In this document: piece after piece, positions 2,068 through 33,261 of the stretch
How positions within the stretch are numbered: position 1 is the stretch's first letter
How the letters are laid out: each line of letters begins with the position of its first letter
Assembly: GCA_963664405.1 (NCBI GenBank)
Contig: OY761158.1
Location: forward strand, 6,368,001 to 6,432,000
Length of the DNA stretch: 64,000 nucleotides
Reading direction: 5' to 3'
DNA from: Thermoanaerobaculia bacterium
GTDB lineage: Bacteria > Acidobacteriota > Thermoanaerobaculia > Multivoradales > Multivoraceae
Made by a program: the position numbers and the translations under genes
Notes under the pieces: model-generated
Seen by the model: the letters and a program-made list of their open reading frames with translations, nothing else
Databases searched by the model: none
What the model was told of the DNA's origin: nothing

Positions 2068-3426
2068 TTGGAGAAGCAGCATTTCGTCGTCATGGGTGCC
2101 GGAGAGGTGGGCTTCTACCTCGCACAGACGCTCTCCAGGCAGGGTCACGACGTCGTCGTGATCGAAAGTGACCCCGGACGCGCCGCCAAGGTCGAAGCGG
2201 AGCTCGATGTCACGGTCATCGAGGGCAACGGCGCACACCTGCCCGTCCTCGAGTCGGCGAGGGTGGATCGCTGCGATCTCTTCATGGCCGTCTCTCAGAA
2301 CGACGAGTCCAATCTCGCCGCCACCCTCCTGGCCAAGAACCTGGGCGCAGCTCGGGCTGTTGCGCGCGTCGGCAACGCTGAAGAGGTCTCTGTTTATCAT
2401 CGTACCTACGAGGCTCTCTTCCGTGCCGACCTGGTGGTGTCGAGCGAGCTTCTGGCGACAACTCGAATTCTCAACTACATCCTCGGCCACAACACGGTGC
2501 AGGTCGAATACCTGGCCCAGGACAAGATCCAGTTTCGCCGCATCCGCCTCGAAGAGGACTCGCCCCTGGTCGGCAACCGGCTCAAAGATGTCGCGATGCC
2601 GGCCCAGGGCCTGGTGGTCGCCTTCTTTCGTGGCGCCGAGCTCACCATCGCCGGAGGTGATGACCGAGCCGAGCCGGGAGACCACGCGCTGGTCATCGGT
2701 CGCACCGAGGTCATCGACGAGGTCGAGAGCTTCGTCAACCCCAAGCCGCGGCGAGCAGGGAAGGTCTTCATCGCCGGCGGCGGCGCAACGGGTGCAACCA
2801 TCGCCCACGCTCTCGCCGGCAAGGTCGGCCGGCTGAAGATCATCGAGTGGAATCGCGCCCGCGCCGAGGAGCTGGCGGCGTCGCTACCGGATTGCTCGAT
2901 TGTTCTCGGGGATGCGACCGAGCAGGATCTCCTCGAGACCGAGGGCGTTGGCGAGGCCAGCGCCTTCGTCGCTGCCACCGGGGTGGACGAAACGAATCTG
3001 ATGGCCAGTCTTCTCGCCAAGGAGTTGGGCGTACCCGAGGTGATCGCGATGGTCGATCGGGCTCAGACCACCAACCTGTGGCGGAAGCTCGGCCTCGTTC
3101 ATATCGTCTCACCGCGAACTGTGATGTACGAGCGCATCGAAGGCTACATCAGCAGCGGCTACAACGCCAATATCGTTTCTCTCAAACGCGGCTCGGCGCA
3201 GGTCATCGAGCGAGTCATTCACGGCGCCAGTCCCACAGCCGGAGTGAAGCTCGTGGACATGCAGCTCCCCAAGGGTCTGCGGGTGGGTGCCGTGATCCGG
3301 GGCGAAAAGGTGTTCGTCCCCCATGGCCCGCATCGCCTCGAGATCGGCGACCGTGTCATCCTCTTCGTTGCGGAAAGTGAAGTCTCCCTCCTGACTCTGT
3401 TCTTTCCCGGCCAGGAAGCAGAGTAG
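2068..3426 (+). CDS. trkA: Trk system potassium uptake protein TrkA
   Basis: Two RCK_N/RCK_C repeats (GAGEVG, GGGATG); likely TTG start at 2068 with GGAGG RBS at 2055; directly upstream of trkH. Confidence 0.93.
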   Translation: MEKQHFVVMGAGEVGFYLAQTLSRQGHDVVVIESDPGRAAKVEAELDVTVIEGNGAHLPVLESARVDRCDLFMAVSQNDESNLAATLLAKNLGAARAVARVGNAEEVSVYHRTYEALFRADLVVSSELLATTRILNYILGHNTVQVEYLAQDKIQFRRIRLEEDSPLVGNRLKDVAMPAQGLVVAFFRGAELTIAGGDDRAEPGDHALVIGRTEVIDEVESFVNPKPRRAGKVFIAGGGATGATIAHALAGKVGRLKIIEWNRARAEELAASLPDCSIVLGDATEQDLLETEGVGEASAFVAATGVDETNLMASLLAKELGVPEVIAMVDRAQTTNLWRKLGLVHIVSPRTVMYERIEGYISSGYNANIVSLKRGSAQVIERVIHGASPTAGVKLVDMQLPKGLRVGAVIRGEKVFVPHGPHRLEIGDRVILFVAESEVSLLTLFFPGQEAE

Positions 3427-3438
3427 CGAGCTCTCCCC

Positions 3439-4902
3439 TTGAACGTTCGCCCGGTTCTTCACTTTCAGGGTCGCCTGCTGCTCTTCCTCTCCGGGGGAAT
3501 GCTCCTGCCGATGCTCTGCGCCGGGTGGTACGGCGAGATTGGCGACGTTCGCGCGTTCATCCTCTCGGCGATCGCAACATCGGGGATGAGCATGATCCTG
3601 ATGTTGGCCGGACGGCGCGGCACCGAAAATCTATATCGCAGCGAAGGCGTTTTGATCGTCGTCGGCGGGTGGGTGATCGCGTCCATCTTCGGCTCGCTGC
3701 CGTATCTCTTCAGCGGCAGCATCACCAGTCCGGTTAACGCCCTCTTCGAGTCGGCCTCCGGCTTCACCACCACCGGCTCCACGATCCTCCTCGATATCGA
3801 GTCGCTGGGCCGCGGCATGCTGTTCTGGCGGTCCTTCACCCAGTGGCTCGGTGGCATGGGCATCATCGTGCTCTTCGTAGCTCTGTTGCCCGAGCTCGGC
3901 ACCGGTGCCCGCTTTCTCTACAAGCTGGAAGTACCAGGCCCCACCGCCAAGACCCTGCATCCTCGAGTGCACGACACCGCCTCGGTGCTGTGGCGCATCT
4001 ACCTCCTCTTCACCGTGGTCGAGACCGGTCTGCTGATGCTAGCCGGCCTCGATCTCTACGACGCGCTCACCACCACCTTCTCGACCTTGGCGACGGCGGG
4101 ATTCTCGCCCTACAACGCTTCGATAGCGCACTTCGAGTCCGGGCTGGTCGAGATCGTCGTGATCCTGTTCATGCTGATCGCCGGAGCCAATTTCTCGCTC
4201 TACTACGGTCTGCGGGTTGCAGGGCTGAAGAGAGGTCTACGAGGGTTTGCCTCTGATCGGGAGTTCCTCTTCTACCTCGGCGTGGCCGCGAGCATCACCG
4301 TGATCACCTCTGCGACTCTGCTGCGCGCCGGCGTCTTCGAGGGTGTGGGCGCGAGCCTGCGCGGCAGCCTCTTTCAGGTGGTGTCGATCCTCACCACCAC
4401 CGGCTTCACCACGGTCGACTTCGATAGCTGGCCGAACTTCGCCCGCCTGTTGATCTTCAGCCTCATGTTCTTCGGCGGCTGTGCCGGCTCCACGGCGGGA
4501 GGTATGAAGTTGATGCGCCTCGTCATCGGCATGAAGTCCGCGCTGCGGGAGGTGAAGCTCATCTTCAACCCGAACGCGGTACTGGCGGTCTTTGTAGGAC
4601 GTGAGCCGGTGCCTAACGGGGTGGTGTCGAGTGTGGTTGCCTTCCTCTTTCTCTACATTGCGAGCTGGGTCGCTGGCAGCGCGTTACTGGCCATAGGAGG
4701 CGCCGATCTCGAGACTGCCGCGAGCGCGTCGATCGCCGCACTGGGAAACATCGGACCTGGACTCAACGCCGTAGGACCGACTGGCAACTTCGATTTCTTT
4801 GCCGGCTGGCAGAAGCTCGTGTTGGTGGGGCTGATGTGGCTTGGGAGGCTGGAGGTCTTTCCTCTGGCCGCCCTCGCAACGGTCGCCTTCTGGCGCCGTT
4901 GA
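3439..4902 (+). CDS. trkH: Trk system potassium uptake membrane protein TrkH
   Basis: [28 protein letters not shown] and LGNIGPG pore motifs. Confidence 0.95.
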
Positions 4903-27956: not shown

Positions 27957-28422
27957 CTAGGGTGCGTGGGCGGCGGGAAAAATGCGCTCTGCGTCAACCT
28001 TTTTCGGGTGGCAGTGCGACACGAAGGAGGAATCTGATGACCTGATCGAAAGACAGAGATAGGAGACCTCTGGGTCTCGAAGGCCGACGGGTGAAAGTCC
28101 CGCCCGGGGAGTTGTCGGTACACCCCGGTAGCCGCCGGAGCAGTCGATGCGGGTGACCGTCCGGCTGAAGCCTCCGGAACAGCTGGAGTAAGTCCAGTGG
28201 GCAAAGGTGCAGGCCGCAACGCGAGTGAACCCTGAGAAGGCCCCGAAAGTTACTTGCTGGAGCCGACCCTCCTGCCATAAGGGGAAGGCCGCCGCTCGAC
28301 GGAGGAGCAACCGACCGTTGAATCCGCCGAATCCAGCCGGGGTAGTGGGGGTGGCATGTACCGAAGGTCTTTGAGGCAACGTGTGAGACCCACGTCGGTG
28401 GCGGGTTGCGACCGCCAACCGG

Positions 28423-28899
28423 TGAGAGTGAGCACGATAATCGATGGGAATGTTGGCCATTCTGAGCACGGTAGGTGAGGGAAGGGTGTTTGGTCCCTCA
28501 AGTAGTGTGCTCAAGACTAGGTCCGTCGGCATCATCCCCGCCGAAGGCGGGCCGTCGGGGCCTGACGCGCAGTCCATACTTGTTCTTTCGCTGATCACGC
28601 TGAACGAGGGCTGACACGCAGCGATGGGATGAACGGCACGCTATCTGATGGGCGATCGAGGCGGTTCGCCGAGCTTCCATCGCGCTTGGGCCCCTGGTTG
28701 CGCCCTCAGATACCTTGAACGGAACACCCATTCCCACCAGACAACGTGATCGGGTTTCCTCGAATCGCCATCAAATACTGTGAACAAGACCGTCTGAGGC
28801 AAGTGGCAGCGAAACGCAGCTTCGGCTAAGTCCTTCAAAAGGCTACGCGACCATCACTTATCGTGATCGGACCGCCATCGATTATCGTGCTCACTCTCA
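28423..28899. mobile_element. 477-bp non-autonomous transposon inside intron 1 domain II
   Basis: Perfect 25-bp TIRs (TGAGAGTGAGCACGATAATCGATGG) and a 5-bp direct repeat ACCGG at 28418 and 28900. Confidence 0.9.
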
Positions 28900-29594
28900 A
28901 CCGGGAAGGCGTAAAAGGTCGTTCTCGGGCCGTTGTGGGAGTCGGAGGGGCTTGTATTGTGCGCCAGGCAGCGCGTTGATCGGGAGGGTTTGAGTCCCTC
29001 CGGCGCTCGGATGAGGGGCGTCGTATCCAAAAGCGGGGGTAATGCCTCGCTGGCCGAAGAGGGAGACAGGTATGGAGAGCTCTAAACGGGCACGAAGGGG
29101 AAACCCGGAAACAGCCAAGGGTGACCTGGAGCCAGCTCTCGTGAGACTTCGGAGGGCAGGGTGTCCACCGCGAGGTGGGATCCGAAGGGCTTGCGGAGAA
29201 GTACCGGGCCGTAGTCGATGGGGGCCACCCCGAAGACGAACCGGTCGGCCAAAGGTGGGACAAGGTCGAGCCTGCAGTATGGAGGCGAAGGCATTTTTCA
29301 TCCACCCACCGCACCAAGGTGTTTGCGGACGGCACGGTACGGAAGATCAGCGTGTGACCCTGGGAGAGCTCGTCGTGTCTGCGGGTGGCACCGCGGTAAC
29401 GGACCCTATAAGCGCAAGCGAAGTGGGAAGGGATGCGCGGCGAGCAGTCGGACGGTCGAGTAGTACTTCAAGCGCGGTGAAAGCCGTGTGACCGCGAGGA
29501 GCGGCAGCTGTGTGAGCTGGGGAAGGCGGCCGGCGAAGACGGTAGGGGAGAGAAGGAAGGCGAGCGAGTAAGGCGGTCGAGGCTGGATAGTTCC

Positions 29595-32500
29595 ATGAGT
29601 GAAAAACCCGAACATCGACAGCCGAGGAGACTGGCTGACTGGATCAACCCGTCGGGAGAGAGGAAGATTCACTCTCTGATCGACAAGGTGTACAAGCGCA
29701 AGAACCTGGAGATCGCCTGGGAACGCGTCAAGTCCAATCGGGGCGCGGGCGGCATCGACGGCCAGAGCATCGAGGAGTTCTCCGAGGGGCTCTCTGAGCA
29801 CCTCGACAGACTTCACGAGGAGCTGTGTCGTGATGAGTACCGACCGCAACCCGTGAGGCAGAAGCGGATCCCGAAGGCGGGCCAGCCGGGGAAGTACCGC
29901 ACGTTGGGCATCCCCACGGTCTATGACCGTGTCTGCCAGCAAGCGATGCTGAATCGGTTGGAGCCGATCTTCGAGCCGGTATTCGATGCTGCCAGCTTCG
30001 GATACCGTCGAGGGCGATCCCAACACGGGGCTCTGCGCAAGGTTTGGAAGGAGATCCAATCGGGCAAGGAGTGGATCGTGGACGCGGACCTGAGGGATTT
30101 CTTCGGGAGCGTGGACCACGAGAAGCTGTTGACGCTCGTGAGCCAACGGGTTTCCGACGGTCGGGTGCTGAGGGTTTTGCGCTCAGTACTCAAAGCCGGG
30201 AGCTACGGGGAGGGTCGCCTGTTTCCGACCGAGCGTGGGACTCCGCAGGGCGGGGTCGTATCGCCCTTGCTGAGCAACATTCTTCTGACTCCTTTTGATC
30301 AGGAGATGCGACGCAGAGGGTTTCGACTCACGCGGTATGCCGACGACTGTGCGCCACGACGGCGCGAAAGGAGTACTCATGTAATTGGGTGTTCTAGAGC
30401 AGCCTTGCTACACGAGAGATGAGGGTGGGCCCCTCGGAGCCGGCATGCAGGTGCAGGCTTCAAACCGCCACGAGCTGCGCGGGTCAAGAGCCCGGGTGGT
30501 GAGCGTCGCTGGAAAAGGCGGGACAAGATTCCGTCAGGTGTGGATCGAGGAGACGAGCGCAAGCGAACCGTCGATGACCTGTCGAAAGCGTAGGGACGAC
30601 GTCAAAACCGGAGGGAGTCGTTACTCCGGGAGGAGTCTGGGTGTTACCTGCCTACAGCCCAGGCGGCGTCCGGCAGCAAGGCGGCGTGACCTCGATGCAG
30701 GCTCTCGTGTGGAACGTGGGAACCTGTCGTCCCGATGCGAAGGGAGAATTCCAAGTGGTCGACCCATGAGGAAGAGAGTACCGATGCGGGGCACAGGGGC
30801 GGAGTCGCGCGTAGTAGTGAGGAAGGTCCTGTAATGGGGCCGGAGCGAAGGCGCGGCACCAACCAGCCGGGTCCGGAGGCCAACCGGCAACGGGAGGAGT
30901 CTTTGGCGAAGGCAAAGCCCTTTCGCATTCCCAAGCGGTGGGTTTGGGAGGCGTACAAGCGGGTAAAGGCAAACCGAGGCGCGGCAGGCGTGGATGGGCA
31001 GTCGTTGGCAGCTTTCGAGGAGCGTCTGAGAGACAATCTGTACAAGCTGTGGAATCGGCTGTCATCAGGGAGCTACATGCCGCCGCCGGTCAAGCGGGTA
31101 GAGATCCCGAAGCCCGGCGGTGGAACGCGTCCCCTGGGTGTGCCAACCGTGGCGGATCGGATCGCGCAAACGGTCGTGAAGAGGATCCTGGAGGCCGAGG
31201 TGGAGACACACTTCCACCCAGACTCCTACGGGTACCGGCCCGGGAAATCAGCGCTTGGTGCGTTGGGTGTGGCGCGGCAGCGATGCTGGCGCTACGACTG
31301 GGTTTTGGATCTCGATGTCAAAGGTTTTTTCGACGCGATCGATCACGATCTTCTGCTGCGGGCGGTGCGTTACCACACGGATTGCCGTTGGGTGCTGCTC
31401 TACATTGGGCGGTGGCTCCGTGCCCCCGTTCAGTTGAAGGATGGCACTCTTGAGTCTCGGGAGAGGGGGACTCCCCAGGGGTCGGTGGTTTCACCACTGC
31501 TGGCGAACCTCTTCTTGCACTATGCGTTCGACCGGTGGATGGCGCGTCACCACTCGGACATTCCGTTCGAGAGGTTTGCTGACGATGCGATCTGCCATTG
31601 CCGAACGGCGGAGCAAGCGCAGAGACTGAAGCAGGAGCTCGCGGGTCGCTTTGCGGCATGTGGGCTTGAGCTGCATCCGCGCAAGACGAAGATCGTCTAC
31701 TGCAAGGATGACGACCGACGGGGGACGTACGAGAACGAGAAGTTTGACTTCTTGGGCTACACGTTTCGTGCTCGGCGATCGAAGAATCGCTGGGGTAAGT
31801 ACTTCGTCAACTTCAGTCCCGGCGTGAGCAACGCGGCGGGTAAAGCGATGCGTCAGACCATTCGGGGCTGGCGTCTCGACTGTCGGATCGACAAGCAAGT
31901 GGACGACCTGGCTCGGATGTTCAATCCGATCGTCCAGGGCTGGATCAACTACTACGGTCGGTACTACAAGTCGGCGCTCTATCCGTCCCTTTGCCATCTT
32001 GATCGTCATCTGGCTCGCTGGGCGAGGGCGAAATACAAACGTCTGCGGAGACATCGAAGGAGATCGGATCAGTGGGTGCGGAAAGTCCGTGACCGGGATC
32101 CACATCTCTTTGCGCATTGGCGCTTCATGTCGTCTCAGGCGAAGGCTGGATGGTAAGAGCCGGATGAGTGGAGACATTCACGTCCGGTTCTGTGAGGGGG
32201 TGGGGGTGAGATTCCCCCGCCCTACTCGACGGGTCCTCACTTCTTCGACCGTGGCTGAGGCTCGTAGAGCCTTGGCTGTGGCGACGAGGATCTTGGAGCG
32301 GCTCGGTGTCTCCATCAATCCGCAGAAGACGCGGATCGTGCACGTGAAGCATGGTTTCGAGTTTCTCGGGTACAAGATCAAGCTCGGAAAGCAGCTTCGG
32401 CTGCCGCGGGCGAAGATCCGCAGCGGTGCCCTTTCGGGCGCCCTGTATGCCTACCCGACTCAGAAGTCGATCCAGCACTTCAAGCAGCAGATTCGCGGTC

Positions 32501-32784
32501 GGACGCGGCGGAAGGCACCGGTTACCACCGAGCAGCTGATCGAACAGCTGAATCCGGTCCTGCGTGGATGGGGGCACTACTACAAACGTGCCCACGTCCG
32601 ACGGCTCTTTCACCAGCTCGACCCATGGGTGGTGCGGCGCCTCTGGTCGCACCGTCACAAGCGCTGGCGCTGTAAAGGGTGGGACAGCCTGCCCAAGGCC
32701 ACGCTGTACGGCGAGATGGGCTTGGTGAACCTTGTCGGTCTGATTCCTTCCATCGATTCTTCCCCCAAGGGGGCGTCTTCGTGA
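29595..32784 (+). CDS. ltrA: Intron 2 reverse transcriptase/maturase, split: join(29595..30348,32231..32784), 435 aa
   Basis: RT0-7 motifs (LGIPTVYDR, DADLRDFF, GTPQGG..SPLL.N); splicing restores YADD-W-VLT, then F.FLGY and domain X (LNPVLRGWGHYY); 1308 nt in frame. Confidence 0.9.
30349..32230 (+). ncRNA. Group II intron 3 (class D/RmInt1-like), inserted right after the YADD codons of the intron 2 RT
   Basis: 5' GTGCGCC; EBS2 CGGCAT (30441) and EBS1 AGTCGT (30616) complement exon ATGCCG-ACGACT; domain V GAGCCGGATGAGTGGAGACATTCACGTCCGGTTC; 3' CCTACTCGAC. Confidence 0.92.
30903..32156 (+). CDS. ltrA: Intron 3 reverse transcriptase/maturase (no endonuclease domain)
   Basis: TTG start after GGAGGAG; NLYKLWNRLSSGSY.PPPV, GTPQG..SPLLAN, RFADD, FDFLGY, GWINYYG; ends at LFAHW. 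Confidence 0.93.
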   Translation: MAKAKPFRIPKRWVWEAYKRVKANRGAAGVDGQSLAAFEERLRDNLYKLWNRLSSGSYMPPPVKRVEIPKPGGGTRPLGVPTVADRIAQTVVKRILEAEVETHFHPDSYGYRPGKSALGALGVARQRCWRYDWVLDLDVKGFFDAIDHDLLLRAVRYHTDCRWVLLYIGRWLRAPVQLKDGTLESRERGTPQGSVVSPLLANLFLHYAFDRWMARHHSDIPFERFADDAICHCRTAEQAQRLKQELAGRFAACGLELHPRKTKIVYCKDDDRRGTYENEKFDFLGYTFRARRSKNRWGKYFVNFSPGVSNAAGKAMRQTIRGWRLDCRIDKQVDDLARMFNPIVQGWINYYGRYYKSALYPSLCHLDRHLARWARAKYKRLRRHRRRSDQWVRKVRDRDPHLFAHWRFMSSQAKAGW

Positions 32785-33261
32785 AAGCCGGATGCGGGAA
32801 ATCTGCACGTCCGGTTTGAGCGGCGGACGGAGGCCAGCCTGCGGGTAACCGCGGGCGCCTCCTCCGACCCGACACTGACGAAGCCGGGTAACTCCGGTGG
32901 AGGGAAGGAGCCCTAGTTCTGGTGCGCTTTGGAAGGAGAAGGAGACCGGGATTGACGCAAGTCTAGGAACCCGAATGAGTCAAACGACTCCGGAAGAAGC
33001 TCTGTGACAAGACCAAGCGAGAGGACGGTACAAGCTCCGATCGCAAGGAGCCGCCCGGCTAGATCGGGTCGAGGGGATCGACTCGCGAATGCCTTGTCGT
33101 GAAGCCAGTCCGGGAGCCGTGTGCGGGAAAACCGCAAGCACGGTTCGATGAGAGGCGGCGGGAAACGGAGCCAAGGACAGGATAGTGAGGCACTCGCAAC
33201 CGAAAGGGCGAGAAAACAGATGGGCCTGACCTACAGCCACCGCGCCCGCCGTCGACTCCAC

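What the first reader, a model, noticed from the sequence alone, without database searches (positions are those of the whole stretch)
30337..32230. An intron targeting the RT catalytic YADD motif while its own RT lacks that target
Seen in sequence: intron 3 EBS2 CGGCAT (30441-30446) and EBS1 AGTCGT (30616-30621, in the loop of the CCGGAG/CTCCGG stem) are perfectly complementary to the 12 nt before the insertion, ATGCCG-ACGACT. These are the Y-A-D-D codons of the host RT. Intron 3's own RT has FADD coded TTT GCT GAC GAT G, which mismatches both EBS elements. Inference: this is a hyperparasitic retroelement that homes into the most conserved codons of other RT genes, gates their expression, and avoids inserting into itself. 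It might also hit other RT classes such as retrons, DGRs or CRISPR-RTs.
Basis: partly seen in the sequence, partly recalled or inferred. Interest (0 to 1): 0.88.

Follow-up and report, generated by a model that had tools for sequence, protein, structure and literature searches.

The report
Known YADD-homing group II intron
A mobile self-splicing intron sits exactly at the catalytic YADD codons of another intron's reverse-transcriptase gene; this target habit is real and widespread but was described in 2003-2008, and the idea that the intron protects its own gene by recoding does not hold up.

Summary
Intron 3 (window 30349-32230) is a complete group II intron without an endonuclease domain. 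It is inserted one base after the Tyr-Ala-Asp-Asp codons of the reverse transcriptase (RT) of intron 2. EBS1 (AGTCGT, 30616-30621) is right and covaries with the target across relatives. It lies in conserved helices and does not covary. The true EBS2 is GCGTA (30588-30592), pairing with TATGC (30336-30340).

YADD homing is lineage-wide. 36 of 67 resolvable relatives in other genomes follow Y/F-A-D-D codons. The genome itself has three identical copies in two different RT genes.

This is already in print (Tourasse and Kolsto 2008, citing Dai and Zimmerly 2003) for M.a.I5, UA.I3, P.l.I2 and B.th.I3. Intron 3 is 57% identical in DNA to B.th.I3 and has the same EBS1 and EBS2. This scan has also reported the same lineage in at least five other genomes.

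The self-avoidance claim is not supported. The intron's own FADD site still pairs at 9 of 11 positions. Relatives occupy sites of that quality, and RT genes of the same lineage are invaded (host up to 73% identical to the resident RT).

Additions here:
- The guide sequences tolerate synonymous codon changes.
- Retron RTs are hit.
- An in-frame chimeric RT arose by recombination between intron copies.

The parts
30349..32230 (+). Intron 3: complete group II intron, 1882 nt, no endonuclease domain, IIB-like. Three 100% identical copies in the genome.
   Evidence: GTGCG start; Rfam RF01999 at 30421-30539 (108.3 bits) and RF00029 D5/D6 at 32155-32230 (64.7 bits). Excision restores the host ORF. 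Copies listed.
30343..30348 (+). IBS1 ACGACT: last 2 nt of Asp codon 1, Asp codon 2, and the first nt of the next codon.
   Evidence: Perfect complement of EBS1.
30336..30340 (+). IBS2 TATGC: the Tyr codon plus GC of the Ala codon. Positions -8 and -7 (30341-30342) are unpaired.
   Evidence: Pairs with GCGTA through 4 Watson-Crick pairs and 1 G.U. Position fixed by covariation in relatives.
30616..30621 (+). EBS1 AGTCGT in a hairpin loop.
   Evidence: 146 of 156 pairs in 29 relatives with other targets; 0 of 2000 shuffles reach this. Hairpin predicted.
30588..30592 (+). True EBS2 GCGTA, in the motif GTCGAAA-GCGTA-GGGA.
   Evidence: Covaries with exon positions -13..-9: 111 of 140 pairs, 0 of 2000 shuffles reach this. 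Same loop in B.th.I3.
30441..30446 (+).
   Evidence: Paired in the RF01999 consensus structure. No covariation with targets. Chance about 7%.
30735..32156 (+). Intron 3 RT/maturase ORF (473 aa from the first ATG; the real start may lie further in). No endonuclease domain.
   Evidence: Pfam RVT_1 at residues 124-344 (E 1.9e-39) and GIIM at 370-447 (E 1.4e-16); nothing else.
31575..31587 (+). Intron 3's own FADD codons plus 1 nt (TTT GCT GAC GAT G).
   Evidence: pairs 5 of 6 with EBS1 and 4 of 5 with EBS2.
28958..30348 (+). Host intron 2, 5' part, including the RT ORF 29595-30347 that ends ...RYADD.
   Evidence: 1391 nt identical to the L002 copy and 99.2% identical to the uninterrupted copy I2b. 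RVT_1 profile positions 1-155.
32231..32873 (+). Host intron 2, 3' part: rest of the RT, maturase domain, and D5/D6 at 32783-32873.
   Evidence: GIIM E 3.1e-20; RF00029 42.2 bits.
28014..33261 (+). Outer ORF-less intron 1. It holds intron 2 and a 477-bp repeat element (28423-28899).
   Evidence: RF02003 at 28085-28224 and RF00029 at 33112-33261. Empty and ORF-bearing copies elsewhere in the genome.

Best explanation
Intron 3 is an intact, recently mobile group II intron. It lacks an endonuclease domain, has IIB-like RNA, and belongs to the already described lineage (M.a.I5, UA.I3, P.l.I2, B.th.I3) whose homing site is the RYADD-coding sequence of reverse-transcriptase genes.

Shown here:
- Two RNA guides read the target. 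EBS2 (GCGUA) pairs with UAYGC, the Tyr codon plus the first two bases of the Ala codon. EBS1 (AGUCGU) pairs with AYGAYN, covering the two Asp codons plus one base.
- The fourfold-degenerate third base of the Ala codon is left unpaired.
- A guide G faces each Y wobble position, so C and U both pair. One guide therefore fits nearly any synonymous spelling of YADD.

Inferred from the family's known biology: the excised lariat, bound to its own RT/maturase, reverse-splices into single-stranded target DNA at replication forks, because there is no endonuclease domain.

Shown here: the insertion splits the host RT at its catalytic site in codon phase 1, and removing the intron restores the ORF exactly. 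The host RT can therefore be made only from spliced RNA.

Shown in this genome: the intron has entered at least two different intron RT genes (intron 2 at YADD, intron B at FADD). Recombination between two copies has produced a chimeric locus (L002).

It has no special immunity to itself.
For: Anatomy: Rfam D1 and D5/D6 matches, RVT_1 plus GIIM without an endonuclease domain, exact ORF restoration.

Copies: three 100% identical copies. The flanks are A5'/A3', A5'/B3' and B5'/B3'.

Lineage-wide target:
- Of the 80 best genome loci with 61-75% RT identity, 67 have a resolvable 5' junction and 36 of those follow T[AT]Y GCN GAY GAY N.
- In intron 3's own clade, 9 of 9 members with a flank do so (quick tree).
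- The junction pattern in metagenomes gave 80 loci. 71 of them have a Tyr or Phe codon in front. The ADD part was forced by the pattern.

Guides: EBS1 and EBS2 covary with the target.

Hosts: GIIM is present in the 3' exons of L017, L032, L049, L066 and window intron 2. 45 of 51 metagenome hosts with a 5' ORF of at least 100 aa best match group II RTs.

Literature: PMC2504315 section 13, read whole, describes exactly this specificity.

Direct link to a named member: the published B.th.I3 target string is at L086 1234-1249, followed by GTGCGCCACGAA. That 1866-nt intron is 57.2% identical to intron 3 over 1860 nt, its RT is 53% identical over 413 aa, and its EBS1 and EBS2 are the same.
Against: - Splicing and mobility are not shown. 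No spliced junction was seen in the two RNA libraries laid. They gave only sparse contigs, so this says nothing either way.
- Five other RT sites in this genome pair at 10-11 of 11 positions with the guides yet are empty: I2b, I2c, the RT at 885 kb, the intron-1-type RT at 6215 kb and a retron RT at 1419 kb. Homing is therefore far from saturating, or is currently inactive.
- 31 of 67 relatives sit at other sites, so the specificity is evolvable and not absolute.
- Sequences of M.a.I5, UA.I3 and P.l.I2 were not available here. The link to the named lineage rests on B.th.I3 alone.
Confidence: 0.9

Rival explanations
1. The intron is a hyperparasite that also protects itself: its own RT is recoded (FADD, GAT G) so that its guides no longer match, which prevents self-insertion.
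For: - Own sites are on average slightly poorer matches than occupied sites. In 28 introns the means are 9.71 pairs of 11 for own sites, 10.43 for host sites and 10.26 for other introns' hosts.
- Only 1 of 28 own sites pairs at all 11 positions, against 14 of 28 host sites.
- Own motifs are FADD in 11 of 28, against 4 of 28 hosts and 8 of 80 metagenome hosts.
- No host at least 80% identical to its resident RT was found among the 30 comparable metagenome cases.
Against: - The own site keeps 9 of 11 pairs.
- Sites with 9 of 11 pairs are occupied (L006, L010).
- The occupied FADD site of host B (TTTGCTGACGACT) differs from intron 3's own site (TTTGCTGACGATG) only at the last two bases.
- RTs of the same lineage are invaded: the L012 host reads ERFADD|AIVHCRSE and is 59-60% identical, L020 is 53%, L124 is 73% and L098 is 60.5% identical.
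- In L124 the resident's own site (TATGCTGACGATG) pairs at least as well as the site it occupies (TACGCTGATGATG).
- Host sites are ascertained for good pairing, which alone biases the comparison.
- The FADD cases cluster in two clades, so there were few independent events.
- The EBS2 on which the claim was built is wrong.
Confidence: 0.12
2. The position at YADD is a one-off ectopic insertion, or a coincidence of sequence, and not a dedicated homing site.
For: Five good sites in the same genome are empty. 31 of 67 relatives sit elsewhere.
Against: - The same codon phase is used in two different host RTs in this genome.
- The same site is used by 36 relatives in many phyla and by B.th.I3.
- The guides covary with the target when relatives change target.
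- The specificity is published.
Confidence: 0.02
3. The nested intron has a regulatory role. By splitting the host RT at its active site, it makes the host intron's mobility depend on the inner intron's splicing, which limits the copy number of the host introns.
For: The host RT ORF is restored only after excision. The inner intron brings its own maturase. An uninterrupted copy of intron 2 coexists.
Against: No expression or splicing data are available; one search was uninformative. The uninterrupted copy I2b can supply intron 2's RT in trans, so this locus gates nothing by itself. The published view is that such nests serve as safe, perpetual homing sites (PMC4424553 passages).
Confidence: 0.25

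Closest known systems
B.th.I3 of Bacillus thuringiensis sv. israelensis (Tourasse and Kolsto 2008, PMC2504315; section 13 read whole)
   Same: - Inserted right after RYADD codons plus 1 nt (AGGTATGCTGATGACT|GTGCGCCACGAA).
- About 1.87 kb, with an RT lacking an endonuclease domain.
- Identical EBS1 (AGTCGT) and EBS2 loop (GTCGAAAGCGTAG).
- 57.2% DNA identity over 1860 nt and 53% RT identity.
   Different: Its host is not an intron RT but a retron-type RT. PADLOC RT_II-A matches both halves, split at profile positions 182/183, and a SLOG-family gene lies next door. It has one copy per strain according to PMC6199540 (passage). Intron 3 has three copies, all in intron RTs.
[quoted passage not shown] That paper is not held. 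It is known here only through its title in reference lists and through PMC2504315 and PMC4424553.
   Same: As described in print: the same target motif, B-like RNA class, no endonuclease domain, nested arrays, and deletions by homologous recombination between intron copies. The last matches the chimeric locus L002 seen here.
   Different: Their sequences could not be compared here. The window's nest has three different intron types plus a transposon-like repeat.
Thermosynechococcus elongatus TeI3/TeI4 twintrons (Mohr et al. 2010, PMC2882425; passages)
   Same: An intron homes into a conserved site of another mobile intron. The inner copies are identical while the outer ones have diverged.
   Different: There the inner intron has no ORF and inserts between the first two ATGs of the host ORF, not at the catalytic codons.
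RmInt1-type introns without an endonuclease domain that home into insertion-sequence transposase genes (recalled; not tested against RmInt1 itself)
   Same: No endonuclease domain, and homing into genes of other mobile elements. Relatives of intron 3 sit in IS66 transposase genes: L079 and L084 match DDE_Tnp_IS66 at E 1.6e-89 and 2.1e-81.
   Different: Different target and class. The S. meliloti plasmid hits at 67% identity are themselves twintrons in intron RT genes.

Membership tests
RYADD-homing group II introns without an endonuclease domain (M.a.I5 / UA.I3 / P.l.I2 / B.th.I3 lineage) | Group II ribozyme with domains I to VI | tested here: met
   RF01999 108.3 bits; RF00029 64.7 bits; GTGCG 5' end.
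RYADD-homing group II introns without an endonuclease domain (M.a.I5 / UA.I3 / P.l.I2 / B.th.I3 lineage) | Intron-encoded RT plus maturase with no D/En domain | tested here: met
   RVT_1 and GIIM only. The ORF ends 26 aa after GIIM and there is no HNH domain.
RYADD-homing group II introns without an endonuclease domain (M.a.I5 / UA.I3 / P.l.I2 / B.th.I3 lineage) | Insertion directly 3' of the RYADD-coding sequence, with IBS1 and IBS2 lying in that motif | tested here: met
   CGG TAT GCC GAC GAC T|GTGCG. EBS1 and EBS2 pair with the site.
RYADD-homing group II introns without an endonuclease domain (M.a.I5 / UA.I3 / P.l.I2 / B.th.I3 lineage) | Homology over the whole ~1.8 kb to named members (published range 58-67% among them) | tested here: met
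   57.2% over 1860 nt to the intron at the published B.th.I3 target in pBTHD789-2, with the same guide loops. M.a.I5, UA.I3 and P.l.I2 were not available.
RYADD-homing group II introns without an endonuclease domain (M.a.I5 / UA.I3 / P.l.I2 / B.th.I3 lineage) | Formal class assignment (B-like RNA; ORF class D, F or unclassified) | not tested
   PMC3552965 (passages) places B.th.I3 among unclassified and former class F ORFs. No reference set was available here.
RYADD-homing group II introns without an endonuclease domain (M.a.I5 / UA.I3 / P.l.I2 / B.th.I3 lineage) | Splicing and retrohoming activity | not testable with these tools
   Only indirect signs: an intact ORF and three identical copies. 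The RNA libraries were uninformative.
Twintron (intron nested in an intron) | Inner intron lies wholly within the outer intron, and the outer sequence is contiguous once the inner one is removed | tested here: met
   The uninterrupted intron 2 copy I2b aligns across the junction at 99.2-99.5% identity.

The most novel reading that the evidence does not exclude
The guides of this lineage are built to read a protein motif, not one DNA sequence. A G faces each Y wobble base of the Tyr and the two Asp codons, and the fourfold-degenerate Ala third base is skipped. One lineage can therefore invade almost any RT with Y/FADD.

Two consequences seen here may not be described:
1. It splits retron anti-phage RTs at the catalytic site. 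The B.th.I3 host is a type II-A retron RT by PADLOC, and the L109 host is also retron-type.
2. Copies sit at the same codon phase in different RT genes, so recombination between them yields in-frame chimeric RT genes. L002 carries the intron 2 N-terminus fused to the intron B C-terminus. This is a bacterial case of intron-mediated exon shuffling.

A weak bias against self-targeting (Y to F, and a non-T base after DD) is not excluded.
Probability: 0.3. Interest if true: 0.55.

Novelty: new member of a known kind. Interest (0 to 1): 0.3.

Why it matters
The element shows that a retroelement can use the least mutable codons of other retroelements as a permanent landing pad. That principle has been in print since 2003-2008, so this locus is one more clean example, with a triple nest.

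What is added here is modest but useful:
- The correct EBS2 position.
- The wobble-tolerant layout of the guides.
- A survey showing that YADD homing runs through all major branches of the lineage, with repeated switches to transposase genes (IS66, probably IS6/IS240).
- The observation that retron defence RTs are among the targets.
- An in-frame hybrid RT made by recombination between intron copies.

For genome annotation, such nests explain 'truncated' RT genes that end in YADD followed by read-through residues.

Tried and rejected
- RNA evidence. Two metatranscriptome runs (X19, X20) and two runs of unrecorded type treated as DNA (X1, X4) were laid on window 28900-32950. The RNA contigs cover only short parts of intron 3 and intron 2 at low depth, and none spans 30348>32231. 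The joint 30348>32231 appears in X1 and X4, as expected from the empty intron 2 copy in the genome. The joint 28952>32874 (intron 1 without intron 2) appears in all four runs and also exists as DNA in the genome. None of this shows or excludes splicing.
- Local RNA fold of 30566-30634. The EBS1 hairpin is predicted, the z-score is -0.66, and the EBS2 loop is not resolved. The EBS2 call rests on covariation with exons.
- Dai and Zimmerly 2003 (PMC1370365) and Simon et al. 2008 (PMC2525957) are not held. I therefore cannot say whether the wobble layout, the EBS2 position or self-targeting were discussed there. Supplements were not opened.
- Phrase searches for 'within/into/after/at the YADD', 'YADD codons' and 'YADD-encoding' found no relevant paper. 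A search for retron + group II intron + 'interrupted by' + YADD gave 2 papers, neither of which was opened for this point.
- The careful tree search did not finish in 288 s. Only the quick tree is reported. L050 and L058 (ORF under 380 aa) and the second tandem copies were left out of it.
- Viral contigs. 7 contigs hold the junction pattern. Two (L092, L093) carry the B.th.I3-type site and one (L090) shows ADD before the junction at the contig edge and an open 181-aa 3' exon ORF. The other four lack a Tyr codon and a recognisable 3' end, and were not followed.
- My first boundary pick chose upstream GTGCG strings that were really host codons (V-R-Y...). This was corrected.
- L026 carries YADD-type guides at a non-YADD 5' flank, with an RT-like 3' exon. 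It remains unexplained.
Full report
**What is there**

The window holds a triple nest.
- Intron 1 is outermost and has no ORF (28014-33261; RF02003 at 28085-28224, D5/D6 at 33112-33261).
- Intron 1 contains a 477-bp repeat element (28423-28899) and intron 2 (28958-32873; D5/D6 at 32783-32873).
- Intron 2's RT gene is split by intron 3 (30349-32230).

Intron 3 starts GTGCG. It has an RF01999 domain I match (108.3 bits) and a D5/D6 match (64.7 bits). It encodes a 473-aa protein with RVT_1 and GIIM and no endonuclease domain. Removing it joins ...CGG TAT GCC GAC GAC T to GG GTC..., which gives ...RLTRYADD-WVLTSS... and an open RT-maturase frame. The 3' exon carries GIIM (E 3.1e-20).

**The observation**

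EBS1 is right. I aligned the first 330 nt of intron 3 with those of the relatives that had a usable 5' end. Every change of target is matched in the loop at 30616-30621. Examples are CCGTAA/TTACGG, GCAAAC/GTTTGC, ACTTAC/GTAAGT and AAATAA/TTATTT. Over 29 distinct relatives with non-YADD targets, 146 of 156 positions pair. The shuffle mean is 82.8 and 0 of 2000 shuffles reach the observed value.

- In the Rfam consensus structure, CGGCAT is the last base of helix GGAGCC/GGCUUC, one bulged G, and the helix GCAU/GUGC.
- The segment stays nearly unchanged in relatives whatever their target. It gives 69 of 174 pairs, with a shuffle mean of 71.0 and 1527 of 2000 shuffles as high.
- A perfect hexamer of this kind arises in 7% of shuffles of the upstream 267 nt.

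The segment that does covary is GCGTA at 30588-30592, in the conserved motif GTCGAAA-NNNNN-GGGA. Examples are CGTTA with TAACG, CATTA with TAATG, TGAAA with TTTCA and TCGTA with TACGG. It gives 111 of 140 pairs, with a shuffle mean of 64.3 and 0 of 2000 shuffles as high. It pairs with exon positions -13 to -9, here TATGC (30336-30340).

**How the target is read**

The paired target is TAY GC(n g)AY GAY N.
- The guide G residues (GcGua in EBS2, aGuCGu in EBS1) face the third bases of the Tyr and the two Asp codons, so both C and U pair.
- The fourfold-degenerate third base of the Ala codon (-8) and the next base (-7) are unpaired.

This is a direct reading of the alignment. That it is an adaptation to synonymous variation is my inference. 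It fits the occupied sites. In 28 introns with full data (intron 3, B.th.I3 and 26 of the 36 loci), host sites pair at 9 (2 sites), 10 (12 sites) or 11 (14 sites) of 11 positions, even though they are spelled in many ways.

**Relatives**

The RT search of one genome per species matched 597 stretches, of which 573 encode a relative. The best 80 were kept, at 61-75% identity and from many phyla. Junctions were set with nhmmer and a consensus 5' end.

| Class of 5' junction | Loci |
|---|---|
| All loci | 80 |
| 5' end off the contig, unresolved or without flank | 13 |
| Resolved | 67 |
| Follows Tyr/Phe-Ala-Asp-Asp codons plus one base | 36 |
| ...TTTCAAnnnGTAA | 9 |
| ...TGTCGCGCAC | 5 |
| ...ACGCGACTTAC | 3 |
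| After W-H-L-D-E codons | 3 |
| IS66 transposase genes, at K-Y-[AG]-D-H codons | 2 |
| Other sites | 9 |

Notes on these classes:
- For the W-H-L-D-E class there is a weak match to DDE_Tnp_IS240 that lies below its cut-off.
- For the IS66 class, Pfam gives E 2.1e-81 and 1.6e-89.
- Several loci are copies from one genome, so these counts are not independent events.

On a quick, unfinished tree of 71 rows, YADD homing occurs in every major branch. In intron 3's own clade it holds for all 9 members with a flank. The other targets are nested among YADD homers.

71 of those 80 have Tyr or Phe before the pattern-forced ADD.

**Hosts**

Most hosts are group II intron RTs of other classes.
- 29 of 31 comparable hosts in the genome set are 26-43% identical to their resident RT.
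- GIIM was found in 4 of the 6 locus 3' exons tested. They had been picked because a simple maturase motif search missed them.
- L074 has an HNH domain instead, and L072 has nothing recognisable.
- 45 of 51 metagenome hosts with a 5' ORF of at least 100 aa best match group II RTs. One is retron-type, and five have no match to my six references.

**This genome**

There are three 100% identical copies.
- The window copy has intron 2 on both sides.
- L003 sits in a different intron (B) after R-F-A-D-D (CGC TTT GCT GAC GAC T).
- L002 has intron 2's 5' half on the left, identical over 1391 nt back to intron 2's first base, and a B-type 3' half on the right.

In the B locus, an uninterrupted intron 2 copy (I2b) lies upstream of intron 3 inside B. 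L002 is therefore what a deletion between two direct intron 3 copies would leave, one copy in intron 2's YADD and one in B's FADD. This is the process the review describes for Methanosarcina (PMC4424553 passages). Both copies sat in the same codon phase, so the spliced product of L002 is an open, in-frame hybrid RT.

Five further RT sites in the genome pair at 10-11 of 11 positions but are empty:
- I2b
- the deleted copy I2c
- an RT at 885 kb
- the intron-1-type RT at 6215 kb
- a type XI retron RT-protease at 1419 kb

**Self-avoidance**

Intron 3's own site (TTT GCT GAC GAT G) pairs at 5 of 6 plus 4 of 5 positions.

Evidence for a small shift across the 28 introns:
- Own sites average 9.71 pairs, against 10.43 for host sites.
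- Only 1 of 28 own sites is perfect, against 14 of 28 host sites.
- Own motifs are FADD in 11 of 28, against 4 of 28 hosts.

Evidence against any real immunity:
- Sites of own-site quality are occupied (L006 and L010, 9 of 11).
- Host B's occupied site differs from the own site only at -2 and -1 within the 13-nt target.
- RTs of the same lineage are invaded. The L012 host reads ERFADD|AIVHCRSE and is 59-60% identical to the resident RT and to intron 3's RT. L020 is 53% identical. L124 is 73% and L098 is 60.5% identical.
- In L124 the resident's own site pairs at least as well as the site it occupies.
- Occupied sites are ascertained for pairing, and FADD clusters in two clades. The small shift is therefore weak evidence.

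I rate real self-immunity as unlikely. A mild bias is not excluded.

**Known or new**

Tourasse and Kolsto 2008 (PMC2504315, section 13 read whole) state that B.th.I3 is inserted at the RT active site (AGGTATGCTGATGACT, RYADD). [quoted passage not shown] They also report that these introns are 58-67% identical over 1.8 kb, B-like and without an endonuclease domain, and that B.th.I3's host is retron-like.

I found the published target string in pBTHD789-2 (L086 1234-1249), directly followed by an 1866-nt intron. That intron:
- is 57.2% identical to intron 3;
- has an RT 53% identical over 413 aa (E 1e-166);
- has the same EBS1 and EBS2 loops.

Intron 3 is thus a new member of a described lineage. 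Earlier follow-ups in this scan reached the same conclusion on other genomes.

The B.th.I3 host can now be named more precisely. Both halves match PADLOC retron RT_II-A (profile positions 8-182 and 183-293 of 304), next to a SLOG-family gene. A second retron-type host is L109 (E 4.4e-71).

**Verdict**

- Novelty is low.

Noticed in passing
L002 = G000:C1:3046981-3050253 and its right flank: A chimeric locus: intron 2's 5' half, then intron 3, then the 3' half of intron B. After removal of intron 3 it reads as one open, in-frame hybrid RT (...RLTRYADD-FVMGFQYRDD...). It is best explained by recombination between two intron 3 copies that sat at the same codon of two different RT genes. This would be a bacterial instance of intron-mediated exon shuffling.
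   Followed up: partly
window 28423-28899: A 477-bp element with inverted ends lies inside intron 1. It has many near-identical copies across the genome. Some loci hold the two ends about 1.85 kb apart, which suggests a non-autonomous derivative of an insertion sequence.
   Followed up: partly
G000:C1:2679570-2681603 (-), copy I2b: An uninterrupted intron 2 copy, 99.2-99.5% identical, with a perfect but empty intron 3 target. It begins GCGCG and not GTGCG, which may disable its splicing. It lies 857 nt upstream of an intron 3 copy in the same orientation.
   Followed up: partly
window 28937-28957 / 32874-32885, and G000:C1:2592530-2592590: Intron 2 is itself an intron-homing intron. It sits at the same ribozyme segment (GGGAGTCGGA..GGCT....AGT|ACTGATGAA) in intron-1-type and B-type introns. 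An empty site exists in an ORF-less intron 1 copy.
   Followed up: partly
L079:3599-4660, L084:4318-5259: Two relatives have shifted from YADD to the K-Y-[AG]-D-H codons of IS66 transposase genes. That target resembles YADD at the DNA level, and EBS1 has changed to match (GGTTGT, GGTGGT). L040, L056 and L058 sit after W-H-L-D-E codons, with only a weak IS240/IS6-type DDE match.
   Followed up: partly
L086 (pBTHD789-2) 574-1249 and 3115-3504; L109:138-620: The host of B.th.I3 matches PADLOC retron RT_II-A in both halves and lies next to a SLOG-family gene and a GIY-YIG nuclease gene. A metagenome locus has a retron-type RT split at YADD by the same intron lineage. Anti-phage retrons are therefore among the targets.
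   Followed up: partly
L094:1527-2942 (G000:C1:1419026-1420441): A type XI retron RT-protease fusion (PADLOC E 4.4e-94; Trypsin_2 domain). Its YADD site pairs at 10 of 11 positions with intron 3's guides but is not invaded. The profile match starts at position 100, so the N-terminus may be missing or lie in another frame.
   Followed up: partly
L042:2455-6186, L047:2201-5864: Two complete intron copies lie head to tail with no exon between them. This is either tandem integration or an assembly artefact.
   Followed up: no
L018, L027, L029, L036, L047, L054, L069, L078, L080: Nine relatives in deltaproteobacterial assemblies all sit after ...TTTCAAnnnGTAA, with matching EBS1 and EBS2. The nature of this target was not determined.
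   Followed up: no
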